64,000 nt of DNA from a virus (lineage: Duplodnaviria > Caudoviricetes), in IMG/VR virus record IMGVR_UViG_3300009181_000072, positions 1,916 to 65,915 of that record, one strand, 5' to 3'. A program made the translations under genes and the position numbers. The notes beneath the pieces are model-generated. The model was given only the letters and a program-made list of their open reading frames with translations. It searched no databases and was not told the DNA's origin. Positions 8,102 to 58,377 of the stretch are shown one piece after another (position 1 is the stretch's first letter; every line of letters begins with the position of its first letter).

Positions 8102-9352
8102 ATGGATACGGTTAACAAGTCGTCACTAGATAGCAATTCTAAAGTTGTAAATTGGCTGCTCGGTAATAATTTTTGTGCGATGCCGTTTGTGCATGCTGCT
8201 ATAGAATCAAATGGTGATGTTAGAGCATGCTGCATGGCAGATCAATTAGAAGATAACGACGGCAATAGATTGAACATTAATGACCTATCGTTAACAGATG
8301 TATTAGAACATCCGGTATACGTTAAATTCAGAGAATCATTTACTAATAACCAGCAACATCCGTCGTGTGCTGCTTGTTGGAAATCTAATGATATATTTTC
8401 ACCTAGGATAAAATTTAGTGCTGTACCGGCGTTGGATAATTACATGCAAAGTGTAATGTCTGGTGGTAAATTAGATTCCAATCTGTTAAAATTAGAAGTG
8501 AAAGCTGGTAATAGATGCAATCTAAAATGTAGGATATGCGGTCTGATAAACAGTTCTCAATGGTTAAAAGAAACTTACGATTATAATGTACAGCATGGTA
8601 TTACTGTGTTACCTTTTAAAGAAAGTGACGAATATAAATATAATCAACAATGTAAATGGATAGACTCTGACAAGTTTTGGACAGACACCCAAAGCTTAAA
8701 CGATATTCGTGTTGTACACATGATGGGCGGTGAGCCGATGATGATACCAGAACACAAGATATTATTACAGAAACTGCTAGAGTTAAAACATTTTAGTGAG
8801 ATACAAGTATGGTACAATACTAATGCTACCTATGTACCAGATCAAGAGCTTGTTGATATACTCAGCCAATTTAAACAAGTATCAATGTCGTTAAGTATCG
8901 ACGACATCGGTGAACGATTTGAATATCAACGCAAGAATGGTAGCTGGGATACAGTAAACACTGTTCTAGATTTCTTTGAAACTAAAAAAGATGTATGGCA
9001 CGTTGGTATCGATCCGGCAATTAGTATTTTTAATATCATGTATCTAGATGATCTTGTAGAATATTTCACGAGTCGAGGATTTGGTGTATTTGATAATCAT
9101 TTTGTTGATAGTTTGTGGAGCATACGAGCTATTTCTACAGATGCAAAACAAGAGATAATGCAACATTACCAATCTGCTAAACATAAAGATCATCACACTA
9201 TAAAAACTGCATTAGAATATATGCAAACTAACGAGCATACAGACGTTACTGCATCTAATCGCAATGAACGAATTCAATTTTTTGATAAAACTAGGAATGA
9301 GTCGTTCGCTACGACATTTCCAGCGATGGCAAGGATTATGAACTATGAATAA
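8102..9352 (+). CDS. Radical SAM protein with N-terminal twitch-like domain (#2)
   Basis: FCAMPF...CC...CAACW; CNLKCRIC; GGEP; YNTN; SID. Confidence 0.9.
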   Translation: MDTVNKSSLDSNSKVVNWLLGNNFCAMPFVHAAIESNGDVRACCMADQLEDNDGNRLNINDLSLTDVLEHPVYVKFRESFTNNQQHPSCAACWKSNDIFSPRIKFSAVPALDNYMQSVMSGGKLDSNLLKLEVKAGNRCNLKCRICGLINSSQWLKETYDYNVQHGITVLPFKESDEYKYNQQCKWIDSDKFWTDTQSLNDIRVVHMMGGEPMMIPEHKILLQKLLELKHFSEIQVWYNTNATYVPDQELVDILSQFKQVSMSLSIDDIGERFEYQRKNGSWDTVNTVLDFFETKKDVWHVGIDPAISIFNIMYLDDLVEYFTSRGFGVFDNHFVDSLWSIRAISTDAKQEIMQHYQSAKHKDHHTIKTALEYMQTNEHTDVTASNRNERIQFFDKTRNESFATTFPAMARIMNYE

Positions 9353-11021
9353 TAAAAAACTTAGCCCGACTATATGCATGATGCCATTTGCTAGCATTAA
9401 TATCCATGCTACTGGCAAAATCGTTAGGTGCCAGATGAGCGAAGATGAAATGGGTGATGTTGTAAACGGGTCAATAGTAAAGCAGTGGGAAAATGAAGCA
9501 TTCCAAGAGTTGCGACAAGATCAGATAGACGGCAATTGGAATCGAGGCTGTACAAATTGTCTGCGTAAAGAATCTGATGGTATCAAGAGCAAGCGATTGC
9601 ACTGGCAATCTTTAGCTGTTGCTAAGGAATTTTGGGATACAAAAGATTTCAAATCTAGTATAGTTAAAAATGACATATTACATATGGATATAGCGTTCAA
9701 TAACTTATGTAATTTCAAATGTAGGATGTGTTCGTCTGCATACTCAAATGCTTGGATCTCAGATGAGAAAAAGCTCAAAGATGCAGGCTTAGCTGGCGGA
9801 AGTAGCGGAAGTCAGCTACCGAAACTTGCTACTACATACAATCGAGAAAAAAATCAGGTAACAACTGAGCAGTTGACGGAATTGTTAGATAATGCGCCTA
9901 ACTTGCAACGTGTTGAGATACTAGGCGGCGAACCGTTCCTTGTGCCAGAATTTATGACATTTTTAGATGAGATGCGCAGTCGCGGTATCCATAAAAATGT
10001 AGAATTGATGGTCACCACAAATGGTAGTCTGATAACAGAAGAAAAGCTAGACAAACTATTGGGTTTTAAATACGTAAATATTAATTTTAGTTTAGATGCA
10101 ACAGGGGACCTATTCTCATACATGCGATCTGCTGGATTATTTACGTTTGAACAAATAGATAAACAACTTGATCTAGTTTTAGCATGGACTAAGAAAGCAA
10201 CTGCTACCGGATATGGTATATACAAGGTTAACATAAATGGTGCTTATCAGATCTATAATATGTTAAATATCAAAGATTTCATCGAATACATCATAATGAA
10301 ATTTAACTGGTATGAAACACCCCCTATTGAAAATAGTAAGTATCGGCATAGTTTCGAACATCGCATAGTTCTCAATGATACACTTTCTGCAAAAAGTGCA
10401 CCTATTAATCTCAAGTTAGAAAGCAATACACAGATAGATTGGTTGATATCTAAATATCCGTTTTTATTAGACATATCTGAAAAAAGCTACATATTAGATA
10501 TCAAGAAGACCTGTAATCAATACCATGATTCAAAAGATACTGATAGTATTCAGTTTGTTAAATTTACTAGAGAACTAGATAACATACGCGGTGTATCAAT
10601 TGATGATGTGGCGCCGGACGTCATTAAACATTTTTTGCATATAACCGACGATGATTGGCTTTCATATCATCTAGAGTTACAGTCTCGTCCAACAATCACA
10701 GCAGGCTCGTCTGCTATTCCGCATTTCAAAAACTGGCGAACGCTGTATATAAGAAATCTATATCGTGCACTGCACGAGAACAACGTGTTTACACTACTCT
10801 CAATTGAATACGATAAAGATATGCCATACGATGATGCATATTATGTTAGCAAGATATTAGAAGTTCGTTACTCTATATCAATGATAAGCAAAGATGACAA
10901 CAACGATATCCGCCATACTATAAAAACACTGTTTGATAGTGAATTTTATCGTATGTATTATATGATACCAGACAAGTTACAAGCACTAGCAGACATGCTG
11001 GGTAAGAAAATACTAGAATGA
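9345..11021 (+). CDS. Radical SAM protein with N-terminal twitch-like domain and C-terminal extension (#3)
   Basis: ICMMPF...RC...CTNCL; CNFKCRMC; GGEP; TTNGS; ~130 extra residues beyond the paralogs' C-terminus. Confidence 0.9.
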   Translation: MNNKKLSPTICMMPFASINIHATGKIVRCQMSEDEMGDVVNGSIVKQWENEAFQELRQDQIDGNWNRGCTNCLRKESDGIKSKRLHWQSLAVAKEFWDTKDFKSSIVKNDILHMDIAFNNLCNFKCRMCSSAYSNAWISDEKKLKDAGLAGGSSGSQLPKLATTYNREKNQVTTEQLTELLDNAPNLQRVEILGGEPFLVPEFMTFLDEMRSRGIHKNVELMVTTNGSLITEEKLDKLLGFKYVNINFSLDATGDLFSYMRSAGLFTFEQIDKQLDLVLAWTKKATATGYGIYKVNINGAYQIYNMLNIKDFIEYIIMKFNWYETPPIENSKYRHSFEHRIVLNDTLSAKSAPINLKLESNTQIDWLISKYPFLLDISEKSYILDIKKTCNQYHDSKDTDSIQFVKFTRELDNIRGVSIDDVAPDVIKHFLHITDDDWLSYHLELQSRPTITAGSSAIPHFKNWRTLYIRNLYRALHENNVFTLLSIEYDKDMPYDDAYYVSKILEVRYSISMISKDDNNDIRHTIKTLFDSEFYRMYYMIPDKLQALADMLGKKILE

Positions 11022-40850: not shown

Positions 40851-40959
40851 CACTTGACAAATCCTGCGGCATAAATAAACTGTCAGTTAGCAATGCGAAG
40901 TTGCAAACTGTCTATAGTAAAAATTGGCACATGAAAGCACACATAGGAGGCACATTATC

Positions 40960-41994
40960 ATGGCACTTAGTCTTAAAGAAATCCAAGCTAAACTGCTCGA
41001 GCAACAGGCTCGCAAAGACCGCTCAAAGGGCGGCACATTTACCGGAGACAATTCAATCTATCCGTTCTGGAACAATCCAGAGGGCTCCACTGCCACTCTG
41101 AGGTTTCTTCCGGACGGCGACGACACCAACGACTTCTTTTGGGTGGAACGGCTCATCATCAAGATCCCGTTCCCAGGAGTCAAGGGGCAAAACGATGCTC
41201 GCCCAGTTGAAGTGCAAGTTCCTTGCATGGACATGTGGAAGCCAGGTAGCTGCCCCATCGCAGCCGAAACACGTCCGTGGTGGAAAGATCCTACTCTCGA
41301 AGATATGGCTCGCAAGTACTGGCGGAAGAAGAGCTATGTGTTCCAGGGTTTTGTCACGCAGAATCCTAACAAGGATGATAACACACCGGAAAATCCGATC
41401 CGGCGATTTATCATCAATCCTAGCGTGTTTGATGCTATTAAGGCGATCCTTATGCGGCAGGATCTTGAGAATAGCCCTACTGATTACGCAGCTGGACGTG
41501 ATTTTTACCTTAGCAAGACAACTAAAGGCGGCTATGCCAACTATAGTAGCTCTAGCTGGTCAATGAAAGAACGTGCGCTCGGTCAGGACGAACTTGGTGC
41601 TATCGAAAAGAACGGCTTGTTCACGCTTAGCAGCTTCCTTCCAAAGAAGCCAGACGATGCACATCTCAATGCTATCATGGAGATGTTTGCTGCATCTGTG
41701 CAGGAAGAGCTGTATGATGCAGATCGTTGGGGACAGTACTATCGTCCAAACGGCATGCGTCTTGAAGGTGCTGGTGCTAACGACGATGCAGCAGGCACAA
41801 CCGCTCCTGTGAGTAAGCCTGTAACAGCTGCCAGCATCATGGATCGTGCAGTTGCTGCTAAGCCAGCTACAACCACTGACAGTGGTTGGAAAGACCCGGC
41901 TCCCACTGCACCAGCAGGTGACAAACCTGTATTGAACTCCCCTGATGCAATCTTGGCTGCAATCCGCGCTCGTAAGCTCGGCGGCGCAGCTTAA
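40960..41994 (+). CDS. Single-stranded DNA-binding protein (gp32-like)
   Basis: ATLRFLPDGD, FFWVER, PCMDMW...CPI, KYWRKKSY, GRDF..KT.KGGYANY; GGAGG RBS. Confidence 0.88.
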   Translation: MALSLKEIQAKLLEQQARKDRSKGGTFTGDNSIYPFWNNPEGSTATLRFLPDGDDTNDFFWVERLIIKIPFPGVKGQNDARPVEVQVPCMDMWKPGSCPIAAETRPWWKDPTLEDMARKYWRKKSYVFQGFVTQNPNKDDNTPENPIRRFIINPSVFDAIKAILMRQDLENSPTDYAAGRDFYLSKTTKGGYANYSSSSWSMKERALGQDELGAIEKNGLFTLSSFLPKKPDDAHLNAIMEMFAASVQEELYDADRWGQYYRPNGMRLEGAGANDDAAGTTAPVSKPVTAASIMDRAVAAKPATTTDSGWKDPAPTAPAGDKPVLNSPDAILAAIRARKLGGAA

Positions 41995-42057: not shown

Positions 42058-43146
42058 GTGAAACCGTTTGACATCAGTAAGTTCCGTCGTGACATTGCTA
42101 AGACTATTCCCAGTCTCAGCCTTGGCTTCCATGATCCGAAGACTTGGATCCACAGCGGTAATTACGCACTAAACTATGCTATCAGTGGCGACTTCAAGCA
42201 CGGTATTCCGTTGGGTAAAGTCACCATGTTTGCTGGACAATCTGGTTCCGGCAAGAGTTATATCTGCTCAGGCAACGTCATACGAAACGCTCAGCGAGCG
42301 GGTGTGTTCCCGATCTTGATCGATACAGAGAACGCACTTGACGAGAACTGGCTTAAGCCACTGGGTGTTGATACATCAGATGACAAGCTGCTTAAGGTCA
42401 ACATGGCCATGATCGACGACGTTGCTCGTTTGGTCAGCGACTTCATGAAGGACTACAAGAGCCGCTTTGATAAGGTAGATCCGGAAGAGCGTCCAAAGAT
42501 CCTGTTTGTGCTTGATTCGCTTGGCATGTTGCTAACTCCAACTGACGTAAATCAGTTTGAAGCTGGCGAGATGAAAGGTGACATGGGTCGCAAGCCTAAA
42601 GCACTAGCAGCATTGGTGCGTAACTGTGTTAACATGTTTGGTGAATACGACGTTGGTTTGGTAGTCACTAACCACACGTATGCGTCGCAGGACATGTTTG
42701 ACCCAGATGACAAGATCTCTGGCGGACAAGGTTTTGTGTATGCAAGCTCTATCGTGGTAGCCATGCGCAAGCTCAAGCTCAAAGAAGATGAAGATGGCAA
42801 GAAGACCACTGACATTCGTGGTATCCGTGCTGCTTGCAAGATCATGAAGACACGCTATAACAAGCCATTCGAAAGTGTTGAGATCAAGATCCCGTGGGAT
42901 ACTGGTATGAACGAATACAGTGGTTTGATCGACATGTTTGAGAAAAAAGGCGTGTTAGCCAAAGACGGCAACAAACTCAAATACACTGACAAGCAAGGCA
43001 AGGAACATAAGTACTTTCGGTCTGGCATCACTGATGAGCTACTTGATCTAATAATGACTGAATGGGACGAAAGCAAAGTTGTGATTGCCCAGGATGCAGT
43101 GGATCTTGATATCGACGATCAGGAAATTGTTAATACGGAGGAATAA
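42058..43146 (+). CDS. uvsX: RecA-like recombinase (UvsX)
   Basis: AGQSGSGKS, LIDTENA, FVLDSLG, VVTNHTY, ISGGQG..YASS, KTRYNKPF. Confidence 0.93.
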   Translation: MKPFDISKFRRDIAKTIPSLSLGFHDPKTWIHSGNYALNYAISGDFKHGIPLGKVTMFAGQSGSGKSYICSGNVIRNAQRAGVFPILIDTENALDENWLKPLGVDTSDDKLLKVNMAMIDDVARLVSDFMKDYKSRFDKVDPEERPKILFVLDSLGMLLTPTDVNQFEAGEMKGDMGRKPKALAALVRNCVNMFGEYDVGLVVTNHTYASQDMFDPDDKISGGQGFVYASSIVVAMRKLKLKEDEDGKKTTDIRGIRAACKIMKTRYNKPFESVEIKIPWDTGMNEYSGLIDMFEKKGVLAKDGNKLKYTDKQGKEHKYFRSGITDELLDLIMTEWDESKVVIAQDAVDLDIDDQEIVNTEE

Positions 43147-43459: not shown

Positions 43460-43924
43460 ATGTGGTACAATCGCGTCGTTAATGACATGAGCACGCTCCC
43501 TGATGCGATCGATTGGTTCCAAAAACAGTTAGAGACTGCTTGGGTAGAAGCAAAGATCGTGGGTAGCGTAGAAAGAGCTGCTCAAGAACTCAGCGGCATC
43601 ATGGCCTATCGATTCGGACAGTTACAAGAAATCGAAGCCATACTCAAGCATCTCAACATACGCTATGATAAGATGCGCAGCGATCACTATCGCAAGTATC
43701 TAGAGCGTTATCAGCGTGAACTCACCGACCGTGCCATCGAGAAATATATCGATGGTGAGGACGATGTGGTTACTATGGCTACCATAACCAACGAAGTTGC
43801 ACTAGTGCGTAACAAATATCTAGCCCTGATCAAGGGGCTAGATGTAAAACAATTCCAGATCAGCAACATCGTGCGATTGCGCATACAGGGTATGGAAGAT
43901 GCTCACCTAGATACTCGTGGATAA
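43460..43924 (+). CDS. uvsY: Recombination mediator (UvsY-like)
   Basis: Helical 154 aa, YLERYQRELTDRAIEKYIDGE, KGLDVKQFQISNIVRLR; downstream of uvsX. Confidence 0.75.
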   Translation: MWYNRVVNDMSTLPDAIDWFQKQLETAWVEAKIVGSVERAAQELSGIMAYRFGQLQEIEAILKHLNIRYDKMRSDHYRKYLERYQRELTDRAIEKYIDGEDDVVTMATITNEVALVRNKYLALIKGLDVKQFQISNIVRLRIQGMEDAHLDTRG

Positions 43925-44009: not shown

Positions 44010-44031
44010 AATGGCCCCGTAAGGGGCCATT
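44010..44031. terminator. Intrinsic terminator between convergent genes
   Basis: AATGGCCCC-gtaa-GGGGCCATT. Confidence 0.75.
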
Positions 44032-44070: not shown

Positions 44071-44304
44071 TTATCGTTTCTGCCAGATACTGTAGAGTAT
44101 CCATATAGCTATCAACCCCACTACGCCTTCTGAACCGAGGTTCTTGACGATAGCAGTGATGTTGGCTATTACATCTACTGATGGCAGGAATGGTATGGCA
44201 ACGCCTTTGAACATAACGCCCAATACGATCATCAGTGCCAACACGCTAACAGCAGTGTCGGCTAATGCGCCAGCCCATTTCTTTATTTGACTTAGTATAT
44301 CCAT
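44071..44304 (-). CDS. Small membrane protein (holin-like size and topology)
   Basis: 77 aa, two hydrophobic segments, basic C-term; GGAAG RBS; CATAAATA late motif on minus strand at 44342-44349. Confidence 0.55.
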   Translation of the reverse strand: MDILSQIKKWAGALADTAVSVLALMIVLGVMFKGVAIPFLPSVDVIANITAIVKNLGSEGVVGLIAIWILYSIWQKR

Positions 44305-44366
44305 TCTACTTCCTTTCGATGGTCTCGATACGAAACCAAAATATTTATGGGCATGCTATTATACGC

Positions 44367-44395
44367 TTGCATTATCCTAACAAACGTGATAAATT
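44367..44395 (+). promoter_or_regulatory. Sigma70-like promoter for the candidate ncRNA
   Basis: TTGCAT-N17-TAAATT. Confidence 0.55.
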
Positions 44396-44400
44396 GTATT

Positions 44401-44734
44401 GAGTTGTGTGCCACTGTACGTAGTTGCCAACAGTGGGAGTCTGGCCTGGACTGACCTCCGGTGTCTGCACAGCGGGCGAACCGAGAGCGCGGGCCTTGCG
44501 CCCAGTCATCCAACGTATCTATCGGGGCTGCTAGGCGACATGTTTGGTGGTTGTCTGTTTTTCCATGCTGGAGCAGTGCAACAGCCTAGGTCTCTAAGGC
44601 CTGACGGCGCTCTGGGCAGCATGGTCGTGACGCTAGGCTTATGCTTGATAAGCACACTCCTCGGGGTGTTAGGCTGTAGTGAACGGACCTACGATTAACG
44701 GTCGCCGGAGGAGTGGATGCAGCGTAACCGGCTC
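44401..44734 (+). ncRNA. Candidate large structured non-coding RNA (family not recognised)
   Basis: GC-rich, no credible ORF, end-to-end pairing, several long-range helices and hairpins, upstream promoter. Confidence 0.6.
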
Positions 44735-44763
44735 TTGCATTATGTGAAATCTTAGACTATATT
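44735..44763 (+). promoter_or_regulatory. Sigma70-like promoter for groESL
   Basis: TTGCAT-N17-TATATT directly upstream of CIRCE. Confidence 0.65.
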
Positions 44764-44771
44764 ATACGATG

Positions 44772-44798
44772 TTAGCACTGCCACTGTTGGAGTGCTAA
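44772..44798 (+). promoter_or_regulatory. CIRCE element (HrcA operator)
   Basis: TTAGCACTg-N9-GAGTGCTAA, one mismatch to consensus TTAGCACTC-N9-GAGTGCTAA, just upstream of groES. Confidence 0.88.
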
Positions 44799-44826
44799 GG
44801 ATTCCATGTAACATAGGAGAAAAACG

Positions 44827-45117
44827 ATGGAACTGAGACCGCTTAATAATCGGGTCATAGTGAAGCGCGTGGACAATGAAACTGTCACGAAGGGCGGCAT
44901 CGTCATCCCAGATTCTGCAGCTGAAAAGCCTGATCAAGGCACGGTGCTAGCTGCAGGTAAAGGGATCAAAGACGAGCACGGCAACTATATCCCGTTGGAT
45001 GTTAAAGTCAATGATCGCGTGTTGTTTGGCAAGTACGCTGGCACACAGATCAAGGTGGACGGGGAAGATCTCCTCGTTCTCAAAGAAGAAGAAATCTTTG
45101 CCGTTATCGAAAACTGA
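44827..45117 (+). CDS. groES: Co-chaperonin GroES
   Basis: [36 protein letters not shown]. Confidence 0.97.
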
Positions 45118-45124
45118 GGAGTAG

Positions 45125-46756
<1,632 letters not shown>

Positions 46757-46782: not shown

Positions 46783-46809
46783 AGAGGAGGGAGCAATCCC
46801 TCCTCTTTG
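46783..46809 (+). terminator. Intrinsic terminator after groEL
   Basis: AGAGGAGGGA-gcaa-TCCCTCCTCT followed by T-rich tail. Confidence 0.75.
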
Positions 46810-46844
46810 CTTGTGCAACAACAGGTCTTGTGGTATAATAAAAC

Positions 46845-48311
46845 ATGATAAAACACTGCATCATTGATATCGAAGACGAAGTCAACATCAAGATGAATGG
46901 TCTTGATCTTGCTGCTCGCAAGGCCTGCACAAATGCAGTCAAGTATTTCATACCAGGCGCACGCTACAGTGCGGCTTACAAGCTAGGGCGCTGGGATGGG
47001 ACCAAGAGCTTTGCTACACTTGGCGGTAGGACTTATCTTAACTTGCTTGACAAGATGCTGCCTATACTGCAGGAGCATGGTTATGATTTTGAGATCAACG
47101 ACCAACGTTTGCAGTATGAGATCAGCCTTAATGAAGTAGATGAAAATGTACATGCACATAAGGTATGGCCTAAAGGACACGAACGTGCTGGCCAATCAAT
47201 TGTGTTGCGAGACTATCAAGTAGCAGTAGTAAACACTTTCGTAGAAAATCTACAAGCAGTTCAGCAGGTTGCTACAGGCGCAGGCAAGACTCTCATAACT
47301 GCTACACTGTCGGCTATGATAGAACCCTATGGTCGCAGCATTGTGATTGTTCCCAACAAGAGCTTGGTTGAACAAACAGAGACTGACTATCGCAATCTAG
47401 GATTGGATGTGGGTGTGCTGTATGGCGATCGCAAGGAATATGATCGTACACATACTATCTGCACATGGCAAAGTTTGAACGTGCTAGACAAGAAGAGCAA
47501 GGATAGCCTGGATGATCATCAGCATGCGATATTCATGCACGGTCTCATGGGTATTATAGTTGACGAAGCACACATGGCCAAGGCTGATGTGCTGACCAAG
47601 CTGTTGACTACTAACTTTTGCCACATACCTATACGCTGGGGGTTGACTGGTACCATCCCAGAAGAAGAGCAAGATCAAATCAGCTTGTTGGCCAGCGTTG
47701 GACCAAACGTTGGAGACTTATTCGCGCACGAACTGCAAGAACGTGGCGTGTTGGCACAGTGCCATGTGAACGTGCTACAGACTCGCGAAACTGTGAAGTA
47801 TAACAACTATCAAGAAGAGCTCAAGTTTCTAACAACTGATACTGATCGCATCAAGTGGATGTCTACGATGATTTCAGCTATCGCAGAATCTGGCAACACG
47901 CTGATACTGTGTGACAGGCTTGAGACTGGCAAGGCGTTGGAAGCTATCATCAAGGACAGCGTGTTTGTCAGCGGTGCAGTTAAGACCAAAGATCGCAAGG
48001 CTGAATATGACAACATCGCTATTAGCGATGGGCAAGTATTGATAGCCACATATGGTGTAGCAGCAGTGGGTATCAACGTGCCTAGGCTGTTTAACTTGGT
48101 GCTAATTGAACCAGGCAAGAGCTTTGTTAGAGTCATACAAAGCATTGGGCGCGGCTTGCGCAAAGCAGATGATAAGGACTTTGTGCAGATCTGGGACATG
48201 ACCAGCACTTGCAAGTTTAGTGCAAAACATTTAACTAAACGCAAGCAGTTCTATACTCAAGCCAAATATCCGTTCACCATAGAAAAAATTGACAGAACCC
48301 TTGCAAATTAA
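46845..48311 (+). CDS. uvsW: SF2 DNA helicase (UvsW-like)
   Basis: LRDYQ, ATGAGKT, IVDEAH, GLTGT, ATYGVAAVGINVP, VIQSIGRGLR. Confidence 0.92.
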   Translation: MIKHCIIDIEDEVNIKMNGLDLAARKACTNAVKYFIPGARYSAAYKLGRWDGTKSFATLGGRTYLNLLDKMLPILQEHGYDFEINDQRLQYEISLNEVDENVHAHKVWPKGHERAGQSIVLRDYQVAVVNTFVENLQAVQQVATGAGKTLITATLSAMIEPYGRSIVIVPNKSLVEQTETDYRNLGLDVGVLYGDRKEYDRTHTICTWQSLNVLDKKSKDSLDDHQHAIFMHGLMGIIVDEAHMAKADVLTKLLTTNFCHIPIRWGLTGTIPEEEQDQISLLASVGPNVGDLFAHELQERGVLAQCHVNVLQTRETVKYNNYQEELKFLTTDTDRIKWMSTMISAIAESGNTLILCDRLETGKALEAIIKDSVFVSGAVKTKDRKAEYDNIAISDGQVLIATYGVAAVGINVPRLFNLVLIEPGKSFVRVIQSIGRGLRKADDKDFVQIWDMTSTCKFSAKHLTKRKQFYTQAKYPFTIEKIDRTLAN

Positions 48312-56158: not shown

Positions 56159-56942
56159 ATGAAAATCGTTTTATGTACCGGCGGCTTTTGACCCCGTACA
56201 CAGTGGACATATCAAGTATTTTACCGAAGCACGCAGCCTTGGCGACATGCTGGTGATTGGATTGAACAGCGATGCCTGGTTGACCAGGAAAAAGTCGCAA
56301 CCGTTCATGTCGTTTGACGAACGCCGTGCGATCGTTTCTAGTTTAAAACAAGTTGATCATGTGCTTGACGGCTATGACGATTCGGATGACAGCAGTTGCG
56401 ATGCCATACGCAAGGTGAGAGAGCAATGGCCCAGTGCAGAGATCATATTTGCCAACGGCGGCGACAGAAGCAACAAAAACACACCGGAGATGCGCATGGC
56501 CTGGGAAGACGACCTGATTAAATTTGCCATGGGAGTAGGAGGCGCGGACAAAGCCAACAGCAGCAGCTGGATACTGCAGGAATGGAAGAGTCCTAAGACT
56601 GCGCGAGCCTGGGGCTACTACCGCGTACTACACCAAGAAGGCCGCGCAGTCAAGCTCAAGGAGCTAACCGTCGAACCAGGTCAATCTCTAAGCATGCAGC
56701 GTCACAACAAGCGATCAGAATTCTGGTTCGTGTCGCAGGGTACTGCTACTGTATATACGTTGGATATCAGCAGTGACTTAGACCTATTAGGCCATTACAA
56801 TGTGAACGACTCCTTGTGGATCCGCAAGGGAGATTGGCACCAGTTGGCCAATGAGACCAATGATCCATTGAAGATTATTGAGATACAATATGGCGACGAC
56901 TGCGTAGAAGAAGATATAGTAAGGATGGATGTGCATGGCTGA
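56159..56942 (+). CDS. Cytidylyltransferase + cupin (mannose-6-P isomerase C-terminal-like) fusion, interrupted by a +1 frameshift after codon 10
   Basis: Joined reading MKIVLCTGGF/DPVHSGH..LVIGLNSD..L.RKK..FANGGDR..SSS; C-term WGYYRVL, LSMQRH..RSEFW, IIEIQYG..C.EEDIVR. Confidence 0.8.
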
Positions 56943-58377
56943 TAGGTTTGGTAATGACGACAAAGAAGACATCAAGGATTATGGCGAGGACAAGCAAAAG
57001 CTGTTGATCAGCGTGCTACTGAGCAGCGAAGACATATTCACTCGCTGCGTCAACATAGTGAATCCTAAGTACTTTGTCAACAAGCTGCGCCCTGCTGTGC
57101 GTTACATGCTCAAGCATGCTGAAGAATATCGTGTGCTGCCAAAGATTGAACAGGTCAATGCAGAGACTGGATTGGAATTTGCCAGGATTGACGAGATCAG
57201 TCCAGGCCACCAAGATGCGTTTCTTGACGAGATCGAAGAGTTTTGCAAGAATCGTGCACTAGCAGATGCAGTATTGGCGTCAGCTGATCTCATTGACAAG
57301 GGCAACTATGGCGAAGTTGAGAAGCTGGTCAGGGAAGCTATCTTGGTCAGCTTGCAAAGTGACATTGGTACTGACTACTTTGATGATCCGAGAGCGCGTC
57401 TGCTCAAGATCAAGGACCGCAATGGGCAGGTTACCACTGGATGGAAGACGGTTGATGACAAGCTGTATGGCGGCATCAATCGAGGGGAGATCACCATCTG
57501 GTGTGCAGGATCCGGTGTGGGCAAGAGCTTGTTCTTGCAGAACATGAGCTTGAACATGGCACGCAATGGATTGAATGTGGTTTATATCACGCTGGAACTC
57601 AGCGAAGGGCTAACCAGCATGCGCATAGATAGCATGCTCACTGACATTGGTACCAAAGAGATCTTCCGCAATCTAGACACGGTTGAGCTAAAGATCAAAG
57701 CAGCACAGCGCAAGAGCGGTTTGATGCATGTGCGACAACTGCCGCAGGGCAGCACAGTGAACGATATCAAAGCATATCTCAAGAACTATGAGATTGAAAC
57801 GCAGAAGCGGTGCGATGTCATGGTAGTGGATTACTTGGATCTGCTGTATCCAAACAACAAGAAGGTCAATCCAAGCGACTTGTTCATCAAGGACAAGTTT
57901 GTCACTGAGGAACTCAGAGGTCTAGCTGTTGAGCGCAACATGGTATGTGTGACTGCAAGTCAGCTGAATAGATCAGCAACACAGGAACAAGAACACGATC
58001 ACAGCATGATCTCGGGTGGTATCAGCAAGATCCAGACAGCAGACAACGTGATATCGATCTTTGCTAGTGCTGCAATGAAAGAACGTGGACAGTACCAGAT
58101 ACAGTTCTTGAAAACACGTAGTTCTAGCGGTGTCGGCAGCAAGGTATACTTGGGATTTGATCAGAACACGCTGAAGATATTCGACTTGGATGAGGAACAA
58201 CAGAGCATGCTACAGGGCGGCGGTGCCGGAGCAGATGTGTTTACAGCACTGCGCAGGAAGAACACAGGCGGTAATCCAGTAGACGAAAGCAATACTCCGG
58301 CTGCGTCGAGGCCCAATGTTGATCTCAACAAAAGCCTGTCTCAGCTGAGCAGCTTAACTAACTTGATCAGGCGCTAG
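56935..58377 (+). CDS. Replicative DnaB-like helicase (gp41-like)
   Basis: AGSGVGKS, YITLELS, VVDYLDL, TASQLNR, KIQTAD, KTRSS. Confidence 0.93.
   Translation: MADRFGNDDKEDIKDYGEDKQKLLISVLLSSEDIFTRCVNIVNPKYFVNKLRPAVRYMLKHAEEYRVLPKIEQVNAETGLEFARIDEISPGHQDAFLDEIEEFCKNRALADAVLASADLIDKGNYGEVEKLVREAILVSLQSDIGTDYFDDPRARLLKIKDRNGQVTTGWKTVDDKLYGGINRGEITIWCAGSGVGKSLFLQNMSLNMARNGLNVVYITLELSEGLTSMRIDSMLTDIGTKEIFRNLDTVELKIKAAQRKSGLMHVRQLPQGSTVNDIKAYLKNYEIETQKRCDVMVVDYLDLLYPNNKKVNPSDLFIKDKFVTEELRGLAVERNMVCVTASQLNRSATQEQEHDHSMISGGISKIQTADNVISIFASAAMKERGQYQIQFLKTRSSSGVGSKVYLGFDQNTLKIFDLDEEQQSMLQGGGAGADVFTALRRKNTGGNPVDESNTPAASRPNVDLNKSLSQLSSLTNLIRR

What the first reader, a model, noticed from the sequence alone, without database searches (positions are those of the whole stretch)
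44401..44734. Candidate novel ~330-nt structured RNA with a possible pseudoknot upstream of groESL
Seen: a GC-rich island between two TTGCAT-N17 promoters with no credible ORF. Pairings read by eye: ends GAGTTG(44401)/CGGCTC(44729); CCACTGT(44411)/ACAGTGG(44430); long-range CCTCCGGTG(44455)/CGCCGGAGG(44703); AGAGCGC(44484)/GCGCTCT(44607); GGCTG(44526)/CAGCC(44582); a crossing 8-bp helix CCATGCTG(44563)/CAGCATGG(44617); hairpins GCTTAT/ATAAGC(44637-53) and ACACTC/GGGTGT(44654-69). I do not recognise it as tRNA, tmRNA or a standard RNase P RNA. Inference: an independently transcribed ncRNA, such as a ribozyme, scaffold or anti-defence decoy.
Basis: partly seen in the sequence, partly recalled or inferred. 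Interest (0 to 1): 0.78.

Follow-up and report, generated by a model that had tools for sequence, protein, structure and literature searches.

The report
Novel structured RNA in huge phage
A roughly 335-base stretch of a giant freshwater phage genome is a conserved, separately promoted, intricately folded non-coding RNA that matches no catalogued RNA family, so it is a candidate new RNA class whose job is still unknown.

Summary
The feature is real. Window 44401-44734 (+) is a non-coding, structured RNA gene with its own promoter. It occurs once per genome in a narrow lineage of uncultivated freshwater huge T4-like phages: 19 viral contigs in three sequence lineages.

Conservation starts right after the -10 box and stops at the -35 box of the next promoter. 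RNA identity between lineages is 0.77, against 0.50 at four-fold degenerate sites of the neighbouring genes. Indels are not multiples of three, and no reading frame is kept.

On a three-lineage alignment, 12 helices are 99.2% paired. Of 60 pairs, 16 show changes on both sides (5.3 in shuffles; 0-3 when slid).

No Rfam 15 family matches, and ARAGORN finds nothing.

In a sister lineage the RNA sits directly before the helicase gene, with no groESL. It is therefore not a groESL leader.

Metatranscriptome contigs from two studies cover 44413-44730 and 44500-44730, and both stop at 44730. This is only a weak hint of a discrete RNA.

The function is unknown. I favour a trans-acting stable RNA, either a protein-binding scaffold or a ribozyme. 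The main weaknesses are only three independent lineages, a folding-energy z-score of about 0, and unresolved alternative pairings.

The parts
44367..44395 (+). Promoter of the RNA: -35 TTGCAT (44367-72), 17-nt spacer, -10 TAAATT (44390-95). The predicted start is near 44400-44401.
   Evidence: TTGC and the TAAAnT box are kept in 10 related loci, while the sequence further upstream cannot be aligned. A comparable TTG-N17-TAAATA precedes the RNA in the distant lineage (read by eye).
44401..44734 (+). The RNA gene, about 334 nt (conserved block 44400-44736).
   Evidence: The covariance model matches at 314 bits over 44400-44736 and nowhere else in the window. Identity to the main clade is 0.77 against 0.50 at four-fold sites of groEL and the helicase gene. 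Metatranscriptome contigs cover 44413-44730 and 44500-44730 with no differences.
44401..44734 (+). P1, the terminal helix joining the two ends: 44401-06 with 44729-34.
   Evidence: 100% paired in 12 sequences. A-U becomes U-A in the distant lineage. The averaged pair probability is 0.80. It competes with an extension of P2 for 44403-06.
44407..44469 (+). P2 (44407-10 with 44466-69), which closes a three-way junction holding hairpins A and B. It could extend to 8 bp (44403-10 with 44466-73).
   Evidence: U-A becomes C-G in the distant lineage. The 8-bp version is 97.9% paired, with 2 pairs changed on both sides.
44411..44436 (+). Hairpin A: 44411-17 with 44430-36.
   Evidence: Four of 7 pairs are changed on both sides; 100% paired.
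44444..44462 (+). Hairpin B: 44444-49 with 44458-62.
   Evidence: Two pairs are changed on both sides between the window and the main clade. The hairpin is deleted in the distant lineage, so it is dispensable.
44484..44613 (+). It closes the central junction and crosses Hb and PK.
   Evidence: 100% paired in the main clade and the window; 96.3% over all 12 sequences. The distant lineage offers a shifted 9-bp equivalent (read by eye). The alternative partner 44711-20 is 93.9% paired, so this is unresolved.
44491..44503 (+). Hairpin C: GGGC/GCCC.
   Evidence: Invariant in the main clade and the window. The distant lineage has a different sequence here that can also form a hairpin (read by eye).
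44507..44719 (+). Long-range helix Hb: 44507-12 with 44714-19.
   Evidence: 100% paired in 12 sequences. G-C in the relatives is A-U in the window.
44513..44531 (+). Hairpin D: base pairs 44513-15 with 44529-31.
   Evidence: All three pairs are changed on both sides in the distant lineage. There is one mismatch in the window.
44549..44586 (+). Hairpin E: 44549-53 with 44582-86, and 44555-59 with 44572-76. Its 12-nt loop carries the 5' strand of the pseudoknot.
   Evidence: The two parts are 100% and 95% paired. One pair is changed on both sides.
44563..44624 (+).
   Evidence: 8 of 8 pairs are kept in the main clade and the window. The central 6 pairs are 100% paired in all 12 sequences, with G-C changed to A-U plus three one-sided changes. 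This helix was not part of the model that made the alignment, and a plain MAFFT alignment shows the same changes.
44587..44603 (+). Hairpin F: 44587-92 with 44598-603. The stem sequence is nearly invariant and the loop varies.
   Evidence: 5 of 6 pairs never vary, so covariation cannot test this helix.
44631..44681 (+). Helix Hg (44631-35 with 44677-81), enclosing the variable hairpins 44637-53 and 44654-69.
   Evidence: Two pairs are changed on both sides. The inner hairpins differ in length and sequence among lineages. One inner pair alternates G-C (6 sequences) and U-A (5 sequences) within the main clade.
44686..44713 (+). Hairpin J (44686-89 with 44700-03), followed by the invariant purine-rich strand GCCGGAGGAG (44704-13).
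   Evidence: Invariant in all 12 sequences, so covariation is uninformative here. This is the longest invariant block of the RNA.
44735..44798 (+). Context, not part of the RNA: the groES promoter (TTGCAT 44735-40, TATATT 44758-63) and a CIRCE-type inverted repeat at 44772-44798.
   Evidence: The CIRCE consensus is taken from a passage of PMC7464140.

Best explanation
Window 44401-44734 (+) is the gene of a previously uncatalogued structured non-coding RNA of about 335 nt, carried by a narrow lineage of freshwater huge T4-like phages.

Shown:
- It has its own sigma-70-type promoter.
- It is conserved far above the neutral rate and is not protein-coding.
- It folds into a closed multi-helix architecture. 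A terminal helix joins the 5' and 3' ends. A 5' three-way junction follows. A central junction carries several hairpins. At least one loop-to-strand pseudoknot (44563-70 with 44617-24) and a second long-range helix (44507-12 with 44714-19) complete the fold.
- Invariant joining strands connect the helices.

Inferred:
- It acts in trans as a stable RNA. Most likely it is the RNA part of a ribonucleoprotein or regulator (about 0.35), less likely a ribozyme (about 0.15) or a decoy (about 0.10). It is not a leader of groESL.
- No intrinsic terminator follows it. Its 3' end would therefore be set by processing or trimming back to the terminal helix.
- Read-through into the downstream genes would be unproductive, at least for the helicase gene, which appears to have a leaderless start.
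For: Boundaries and conservation.
- Conservation begins just after the -10 box and ends at the next -35 box in 10 related loci. The upstream flank cannot be aligned.
- RNA identity between the window and the main clade is 0.77 over 333 positions. Four-fold degenerate sites are 0.50 identical in groEL (258 sites) and in the helicase gene (167 sites).

Not coding.
- Indels of 1, 2, 7 and 8 nt occur.
- Open frames switch between relatives, and no protein-level match links the distant lineage to the others.

Structure.
- On the 12-sequence, three-lineage alignment, 60 pairs in 12 helices are 99.2% paired.
- 16 pairs change on both sides, against a shuffled mean of 5.3 (0 of 500 shuffles reach 16) and 0-3 when partners are slid.
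- The pseudoknot was not in the aligning model, yet it co-varies.
- By my own tally of the per-pair table, about 82 of 708 cells are G-U pairs. These would be A-C mismatches on the other strand, which fits + strand RNA.

Independence from groESL.
- In the distant lineage the RNA lies between the AAA ATPase gene and the helicase gene, with no groESL. That helicase is 83% identical to the window's.
- In all three lineages a promoter for the downstream gene starts right after the RNA.

No known family.

Transcription.
- In run X19 a whole 318-nt contig lies at 44413-44730 with no differences.
- In run X20, from another study, a whole 231-nt contig lies at 44500-44730.
- Both stop at 44730, with no loose end. 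A DNA-run contig continues across 44714-45156.
Against: - Folding energy is no better than that of shuffles (z = 0.01).
- There are only three independent lineages. Most both-sided changes are single events on the window branch or the distant-lineage branch, so no proper significance test of covariation is possible.
- Alignment A3 was fitted to my own model and leans towards it.
- RNAalifold proposes partly different long-range helices.
- Two strands have two mutually exclusive conserved partners each.
- Distribution is narrow. The RNA is absent at E <= 10 from 19 of the 20 relatives' records searched. One of these is a complete 518,643-bp genome with terminal repeats.
- No terminator follows the RNA.
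- Depth of the RNA-library contigs over the RNA (3.7 and 2.8) is no higher than that of exact-match groEL contigs (3.5-4.3). Contigs show no strand, and DNA may be present in such libraries.
- No partner protein or target was identified.
Confidence: 0.6

Rival explanations
1. It is a cis-acting structured 5' leader. Transcripts from the upstream promoter run through it into the downstream operon, and the fold controls their stability, processing or translation.
For: No intrinsic terminator lies between the RNA and the downstream gene. The only + strand terminator-like site sits inside the RNA (44526-44552), has just 3 G-C pairs and is not conserved. The RNA is always co-oriented with the downstream gene.
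Against: The downstream gene differs between lineages: groES in two and the helicase gene in the third. A separate promoter for that gene always starts right after the RNA. The helicase start lies 5 nt after a TATAAT box with no ribosome-binding site, so read-through transcripts would translate it poorly; this last step is inferred. RNA-library contigs from two studies stop at 44730.
Confidence: 0.12
2. It is a replication-origin transcript. A promoter-driven RNA in the recombination and replication module would form a primer or R-loop, as at T4 oriF or with ColE1 RNA II.
For: It lies among gp32-like, UvsX-like, UvsY-like and helicase genes. It has a promoter and no terminator. From recall, not from a call: T4 oriF lies at uvsY and UvsW removes origin R-loops.
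Against: The element is GC-rich (0.58), not AT-rich. Selection acts on RNA pairing, including wobble pairs and a pseudoknot. Cumulative GC skew runs straight through the site in the window. The same holds in the 216-kb relative, where the RNA is at about 70 kb and the skew minimum at about 146 kb. Close relatives lack it, including a complete genome.
Confidence: 0.06
3. It is an extremely divergent member of a known RNA family of similar size, such as RNase P RNA or tmRNA, which huge phages might plausibly carry.
For: Its size is about 335-350 nt. Its ends are paired. A long-range helix has its 3' strand just before the terminal helix. It contains pseudoknots. Per the abstract of PMC7162821 seen in the listing, huge phages carry expanded gene sets; the term count of the same listing shows that the paper mentions tmRNA.
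Against: No Rfam 15 model reaches even E = 10 on the window element or on two relatives, apart from three unrelated noise hits of 11-16 bits. ARAGORN finds no tmRNA or tRNA in the window. The LSU rRNA model finds nothing.
Confidence: 0.05
4. It is a small protein-coding gene, namely the 99-aa ORF at 44399-44698.
For: An open frame of 99-101 codons exists in the window, and one of 92 codons in the distant lineage.
Against: In the main clade the longest + strand open frames are 67-74 codons. Matches jump between frames. No protein-level similarity links the distant lineage to the others. Indels are not multiples of three. The ORF has no Pfam family.
Confidence: 0.02
5. It is a DNA-level element, such as a recombination or packaging site or the remnant of an inserted cassette, and is conserved as DNA rather than as RNA.
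For: It is a GC island in a variable hotspot between the ATPase and helicase genes, where relatives carry other genes. In the window a 10-nt direct repeat, CTTGCATTAT, flanks it at 44366-75 and 44734-43.
Against: The pairing is strand-specific, with many G-U pairs. Long-range and crossing helices would have no meaning in duplex DNA. The flanking repeat is the promoter -35 region and shrinks to 4-7 nt in the relatives.
Confidence: 0.03

Closest known systems
Bacterial RNase P RNA
   Same: It is of similar size. A terminal helix pairs the two ends. A long-range crossing helix has its 3' strand shortly before the terminal helix. It is transcribed as a stable RNA from its own promoter. (The RNase P features are recalled, not taken from a call.)
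   Different: No RNase P model of Rfam 15 matches at E <= 10 in the window or in two relatives. The RNA is confined to one phage lineage. No tRNA genes lie in the window.
tmRNA
   Same: It is about 350 nt long, has paired ends and contains pseudoknots. The listing shows that PMC7162821 mentions tmRNA in huge phages.
   Different: ARAGORN finds none and there is no Rfam match. No conserved short reading frame exists: the mini-frames after the GGAG strand differ among lineages (read by eye).
Large orphan ncRNAs linked to phages (GOLLD, ROOL)
   Same: These are also large, intricately folded RNAs of unknown function found in phage or lake sequence. I saw the abstract of 10.1101/2024.12.08.627333 in the listing; the rest is recalled.
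   Different: This RNA is about half their size, has no covariance-model match and has no tRNA neighbours.
phi29 packaging RNA (pRNA)
   Same: It is a phage-encoded, trans-acting structured RNA that works with an ATPase (recalled). Here an AAA ATPase gene lies directly upstream in two of the three lineages.
   Different: There is no Rfam match. The host phage is a myovirus with an ordinary large terminase. The ATPase also occurs in all 5 RNA-less relatives tested and was not found in the window's own record.
T4 oriF / ColE1 RNA II origin transcripts
   Same: It is a promoter-driven non-coding transcript without a terminator, lying next to uvsY-like and helicase genes.
   Different: It is GC-rich and selected for RNA pairing. 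GC skew does not turn at the site. It is missing from close relatives.

Membership tests
Any Rfam 15 family (4227 covariance models) | A match at or above the family's gathering score | tested here: not met
   There were 0 matches in the whole 64,000-base window. At E <= 10 each of three searches gave one unrelated hit: t44 at 16.2 bits (cut-off 44), ZNRD1-AS1_3 at 11.2 bits (cut-off 60) and Afu_513 at 11.8 bits (cut-off 48).
Bacterial RNase P RNA | Conserved catalytic core, as captured by the RNase P covariance models | tested here: not met
   No RNase P model appears at E <= 10 on 44200-44900 or on the homologous stretches of L167 and L003.
Bacterial RNase P RNA | A terminal helix joining the ends, plus a long-range pseudoknotted helix | tested here: met
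   P1 (44401-06/44729-34), Hb (44507-12/44714-19) and PK (44563-70/44617-24) are present. This is a resemblance of layout only and is not specific to the family.
tmRNA | A tRNA-like domain and a tag reading frame | tested here: not met
   ARAGORN finds 0 genes in the window. There is no Rfam tmRNA match.
Cis-regulatory leader or riboswitch of groESL | Constant association with the regulated gene | tested here: not met
   The distant lineage has the RNA directly before the helicase gene and no groESL.
Cis-regulatory leader or riboswitch of groESL | An expression platform (terminator, or pairing that hides the ribosome-binding site) joined to the aptamer | tested here: not met
   A complete promoter lies between the RNA and the gene in all three lineages, and in two of them a CIRCE repeat as well.
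Protein-coding gene | A reading frame kept among relatives | tested here: not met
   Frames switch and indels are not multiples of three.
Group I or group II intron | Insertion in a host gene with flanking exons, and an intron covariance-model match | tested here: not met
   The element is intergenic, between promoters. No intron model matches.
Origin primer transcript (T4 oriF type) | An AT-rich unwinding element downstream of the promoter, and a turn in strand-composition skew | tested here: not met
   GC is 0.58. Cumulative skew is monotonic through the site in the window and in the 216-kb relative.
Retron, DRT or other RT-templating ncRNA | An adjacent reverse transcriptase gene | tested here: not met
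   The neighbours are UvsY-like, a 77-aa ORF or an AAA ATPase, GroES/GroEL and a helicase. Only the immediate neighbours were checked, not the whole genome.
Ribozyme (self-cleaving or other) | Catalytic activity | not testable with these tools
   No known ribozyme model matches. Activity needs a bench assay.

The most novel reading that the evidence does not exclude
This is the founding member of a new class of large, doubly pseudoknotted phage RNAs that work as a ribozyme or as a conformational switch.

Two strands each have two mutually exclusive partners, and both alternatives are kept across lineages:
- 44403-06 pairs with either 44470-73 or 44729-32.
- 44607-13 pairs with either 44484-90 or 44711-20.

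The RNA could therefore toggle between an open, locally paired fold and a closed, pseudoknotted fold. It might act on or with the phage's recombination and replication machinery, since its neighbours are UvsX-like, UvsY-like, an AAA ATPase and a helicase. It might also cut itself out of read-through transcripts.
Probability: 0.2. Interest if true: 0.85.

Novelty: categorically new. Interest (0 to 1): 0.62.

Why it matters
Large, intricately folded bacterial and phage RNAs are rare. Those that have been understood turned out to be ribozymes, ribonucleoprotein cores or unusual assemblies.

This RNA is a clean case. Its boundaries are sharp and it has its own promoter. It has about 12 helices and at least one pseudoknot supported by covariation. 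It matches none of the 4227 Rfam families.

It sits in uncultivated huge phages (the related 518,643-bp genome is rated complete), whose added gene content is poorly understood. At about 110 kDa it is large enough for cryo-EM, and it can be made by in vitro transcription, so the question of what it does can be tested directly.

"New" here means a new RNA family with no detectable relatives. No new mechanism has been shown. The narrow distribution limits both its reach and the statistical power of the covariation evidence.

Tried and rejected
1. Known families. I ran Rfam at gathering thresholds on the whole window. I ran it at E <= 10 on the element and on two relatives. I also ran ARAGORN and the LSU rRNA model on the phage record. 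Nothing was found.

2. Ribosomal RNA mimicry. From memory the 3' purine-rich strand looked like part of 23S rRNA. I fetched E. coli rrlH and made local alignments of three homologues against it. They scored 22, 22 and 28. The shuffled means were 22.2-22.6 (sd 2.2-2.5, maxima 28-35), and the best-matching places are not conserved within the RNA family. Rejected.

3. RegB link. Pfam gave a weak RegB hit for the 154-aa ORF (E 0.007, below the cut-off). PHROGs assigns that ORF to UvsY-like mediators (E 1.6e-13). I dropped the idea that the GGAG strand is a RegB target.

4. ATPase-RNA module. The upstream AAA ATPase (phrog_1250) is also present in all 5 RNA-less relatives tested. It was not found in the window's own 66-kb record. 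No specific link is shown.

5. Wider homologues.
- blastn and megablast against 50,697 phage records found no match.
- One pattern had a wrong gap length and found nothing.
- Pattern scans of viral contigs returned only the same three lineages plus chance hits.
- The metagenome scan gave 28 stretches. Ten were the same clade and 18 were chance matches in GC-rich coding DNA.
- The genome scan gave 3 stretches, and none matched the model.
- nhmmer and the covariance model over the other groEL loci found nothing.
- The model with filters off, run upstream of the helicase gene in five RNA-less relatives, scored at most 5.5 bits.

6. Helix Hc (44535-40 with 44701-06) fits the main clade and the window, but the distant lineage has gaps in half of it. 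It also excludes hairpin J. I left it out.

7. Folding energy gives no support.

8. Read laying. Run X13 shows no depth over 44368-44730. RNA-run depth over the RNA is not above that over groEL. I draw no conclusion from either.

9. Literature. Five searches and term look-ups in three papers turned up no description of this RNA.
- For PMC10690425 I saw the listing, the abstract start and a term search with 0 hits.

Full report
WHAT IS THERE

The window is a 64-kb piece of a 65,915-bp IMG/VR virus record. It encodes a tail sheath, a tail tube and a large terminase. It also encodes a T4-type recombination and replication set:
- a gp32-like protein at 40924-41994;
- a UvsX-like recombinase at 42058-43146;
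- a UvsY-like mediator at 43460-43924;
- a helicase at 46845-48311;
- a DnaB-like helicase.

CheckV rates a related 216,498-bp contig as 42% complete and a related 518,643-bp genome with terminal repeats as 100% complete. This is therefore a huge-phage lineage. Public runs that hold the stretch are labelled as freshwater or lake metagenomes.

The finding lies between a 77-aa ORF on the minus strand (44071-44304) and groES (44827-45117) followed by groEL (45131-46756).

CHECK OF THE OBSERVATION

The GC island is real, at 0.58 against 0.40-0.49 in the flanks. The two TTGCAT-N17 promoters are real, at 44367-95 and 44735-63.

The single-sequence fold is no more stable than shuffles. On the + strand z is 0.01, and 43 of 100 shuffles fold at least as well. 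On the - strand z is -0.53. All support for structure therefore has to come from comparison with relatives.

RELATIVES

- Of 45 viral loci that encode a GroEL relative, 11 carry the element at 74-83% identity.
- Pattern scans, a profile HMM and a covariance model added more loci.
- In all, 18 IMG/VR contigs besides the window's own record carry it.
- They give 10 distinct full-length sequences for the window plus a "main clade".
- A distant lineage gives 2 more (L167 and L170; 84-86 bits, E about 1e-25).
- There is one copy per genome.
- It is absent at E <= 10 from 19 of the 20 relatives' records searched, including the complete 518-kb genome. It is also absent from a 381-kb genome and an 80-kb contig that share GroEL.
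- In five RNA-less relatives the ATPase and helicase genes are present. In the four of them whose ORFs I listed, ordinary coding genes fill the neighbouring space.
- The single genome-collection scan gave only 3 hits, and none matched the model.

The RNA is thus a lineage-specific gene in a variable hotspot.

IT IS NON-CODING AND UNDER SELECTION

In a plain MAFFT alignment, conservation starts just after the -10 box and ends at the -35 box of the next promoter. The upstream flank cannot be aligned.

Identity between the window and the main clade is 0.77 over 333 positions. Four-fold degenerate sites of the adjacent groEL and helicase genes are only 0.50 identical. Against the distant lineage the figures are 0.66-0.67 and 0.51-0.55.

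Indels are 1, 2, 7 and 8 nt long. Open frames switch among relatives, and nothing links the distant lineage to the others at protein level. The 99-aa ORF matches no Pfam family.

STRUCTURE

I then built model R1 and used it to align all three lineages as alignment A3.

On A3, 60 pairs in 12 helices are 99.2% paired.
- 16 pairs change on both sides. The shuffled mean is 5.3, and 0 of 500 shuffles reach 16.
- Sliding the partners by 1-3 columns gives 0-3 such pairs and 31-38% pairing.

Helices with both-sided changes are:
- P1, the terminal helix (1 pair);
- P2 (1);
- hairpin A (4);
- hairpin B (2);
- Hb, 44507-12 with 44714-19 (1);
- hairpin D (3);
- hairpin E (1);
- the pseudoknot PK, 44563-70 with 44617-24 (1, plus three one-sided changes);
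- Hg (2).

PK was not in the model, and the independent MAFFT alignment A4 shows the same substitutions. Hairpin B is deleted in the distant lineage, and the two hairpins inside Hg are replaced there by longer ones. This is the usual behaviour of peripheral stems.

Caveats on the structure:
- A3 is fitted to my model.
- There are only three independent lineages.
- Hairpins F and J never vary, so covariation cannot test them.

WHAT FAILED OR STAYS OPEN

Its two parts are 40% and 71% paired.

If it is real, it crosses both Hb and PK, which gives a doubly pseudoknotted fold. However, strand 44607-13 can instead pair with 44711-20, at 93.9% paired.

Likewise, 44403-06 can extend P2 to 8 bp (97.9% paired, two both-sided changes) instead of forming P1. 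RNAalifold on A3 proposes yet another partner for the 3' purine-rich strand.

I cannot tell whether these alternatives reflect a real switch or simply too little data.

NOT A KNOWN FAMILY

Rfam 15 gives nothing at gathering thresholds. At E <= 10 it gives three mutually unrelated noise hits on three homologues. ARAGORN finds nothing and the LSU rRNA model finds nothing. A recalled likeness to 23S rRNA did not beat shuffles.

Five literature searches and three term look-ups found no description of this RNA. The closed supplements of PMC10690425 might list it among its candidates.

HOW IT LIKELY WORKS

Shown:
- It has its own promoter, and a promoter for the next gene starts immediately after its last paired base in all three lineages.
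- That next gene differs between lineages. It is groES, with a CIRCE repeat, in two lineages. In the third it is the helicase gene, 83% identical to the window's.
- The helicase start codon lies 5 nt after a TATAAT box, with no ribosome-binding site.

Inferred:
- The RNA itself is the product of its promoter, and it acts in trans.
- Its ends are sealed by P1.
- With no terminator, the 3' end is made by processing or trimming.

Weak support comes from two metatranscriptomes of different studies. Each holds a whole contig laid on the element without any difference (44413-44730 and 44500-44730). Both end at 44730, with no loose end, while a DNA-run contig bridges 44714-45156. Contigs show neither strand nor abundance, their depth is not above that of groEL, and DNA may be present in such libraries.

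The size, the number of helices, the pseudoknot and the invariant joining strands (for example GCCGGAGGAG at 44704-13) point to a protein-binding or catalytic RNA. Which of the two cannot be decided here.

RIVALS

- A cis-acting leader (0.12). The changing downstream gene and the intervening promoters argue against it.
- An origin transcript (0.06). The GC content, the selection on RNA pairing and the lack of any turn in GC skew argue against it.
- A very divergent known family (0.05).
- A DNA-level element (0.03).
- A protein-coding gene (0.02).

VERDICT

This is a real, new structured RNA family of narrow distribution and unknown function. I put about 0.9 on "conserved structured non-coding RNA" and 0.6 on the fuller statement that it is a trans-acting stable RNA. 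Interest is 0.62.

Noticed in passing
window 44772-44798: A near-perfect CIRCE (HrcA operator) inverted repeat, TTAGCACTG-N9-GAGTGCTAA, lies between the groES promoter's -10 box and the groES start codon. It matches 17 of the 18 consensus bases of TTAGCACTC-N9-GAGTGCTAA (consensus from a passage of PMC7464140). It is kept in all 10 aligned relatives. The phage groESL thus seems to have kept a host-type heat-shock operator, which hints at a host that uses HrcA.
   Followed up: partly
window 46783-46850; L167 1470-1510 (- strand): After groEL comes a G+C-rich hairpin with a T run, which looks like an intrinsic terminator. Then comes a promoter whose TATAAT box lies 5 nt before the helicase ATG, with no ribosome-binding site. 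This looks like a leaderless mRNA. The distant lineage has the same arrangement.
   Followed up: partly
window 44366-44375 and 44734-44743: A 10-nt direct repeat, CTTGCATTAT, flanks the RNA at both ends; it covers the two -35 regions. In relatives only 4-7 nt are shared. It might be a trace of how the cassette arose, or only promoter similarity.
   Followed up: no
L003 2096-3169; L167 1883-2938 (- strand): An AAA-type ATPase of unknown function (phrog_1250, E 6.4e-80; a sub-threshold Pfam AAA_16 hit) lies directly upstream of the RNA in the main clade and in the distant lineage. The two copies are 74% identical. It was not found in the window's own 66-kb record, where a 77-aa ORF on the minus strand takes its place. 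It is present in all 5 RNA-less relatives tested.
   Followed up: yes
Main-clade copies of the hairpin that lies at window 44587-44603: In the main clade this hairpin reads GGTCCCGGGACC, a perfect 12-nt palindrome. In the distant lineage its loop reads CCATGG. In the window the loop is not palindromic. A kissing-loop dimer is conceivable but is not conserved. The distant lineage carries the palindromic tetranucleotide CATG seven times within the RNA (my own count on the sequences).
   Followed up: no
window 44010-44031: A strong hairpin with 9 pairs, 6 of them G-C, lies between the convergent UvsY-like gene and the 77-aa ORF. It probably acts as a two-way terminator.
   Followed up: no
window 9345-11021: A 558-aa protein has weak radical-SAM matches (PHROGs E about 1e-8). 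It lies in a run of large ORFs, three of which (of those I scanned) match no PHROG family.
   Followed up: no
G006 (L185), 56392-57459: In this relative the ATPase match is interrupted by one in-frame TAA stop. This could be a broken gene, a sequencing error or recoding.
   Followed up: no
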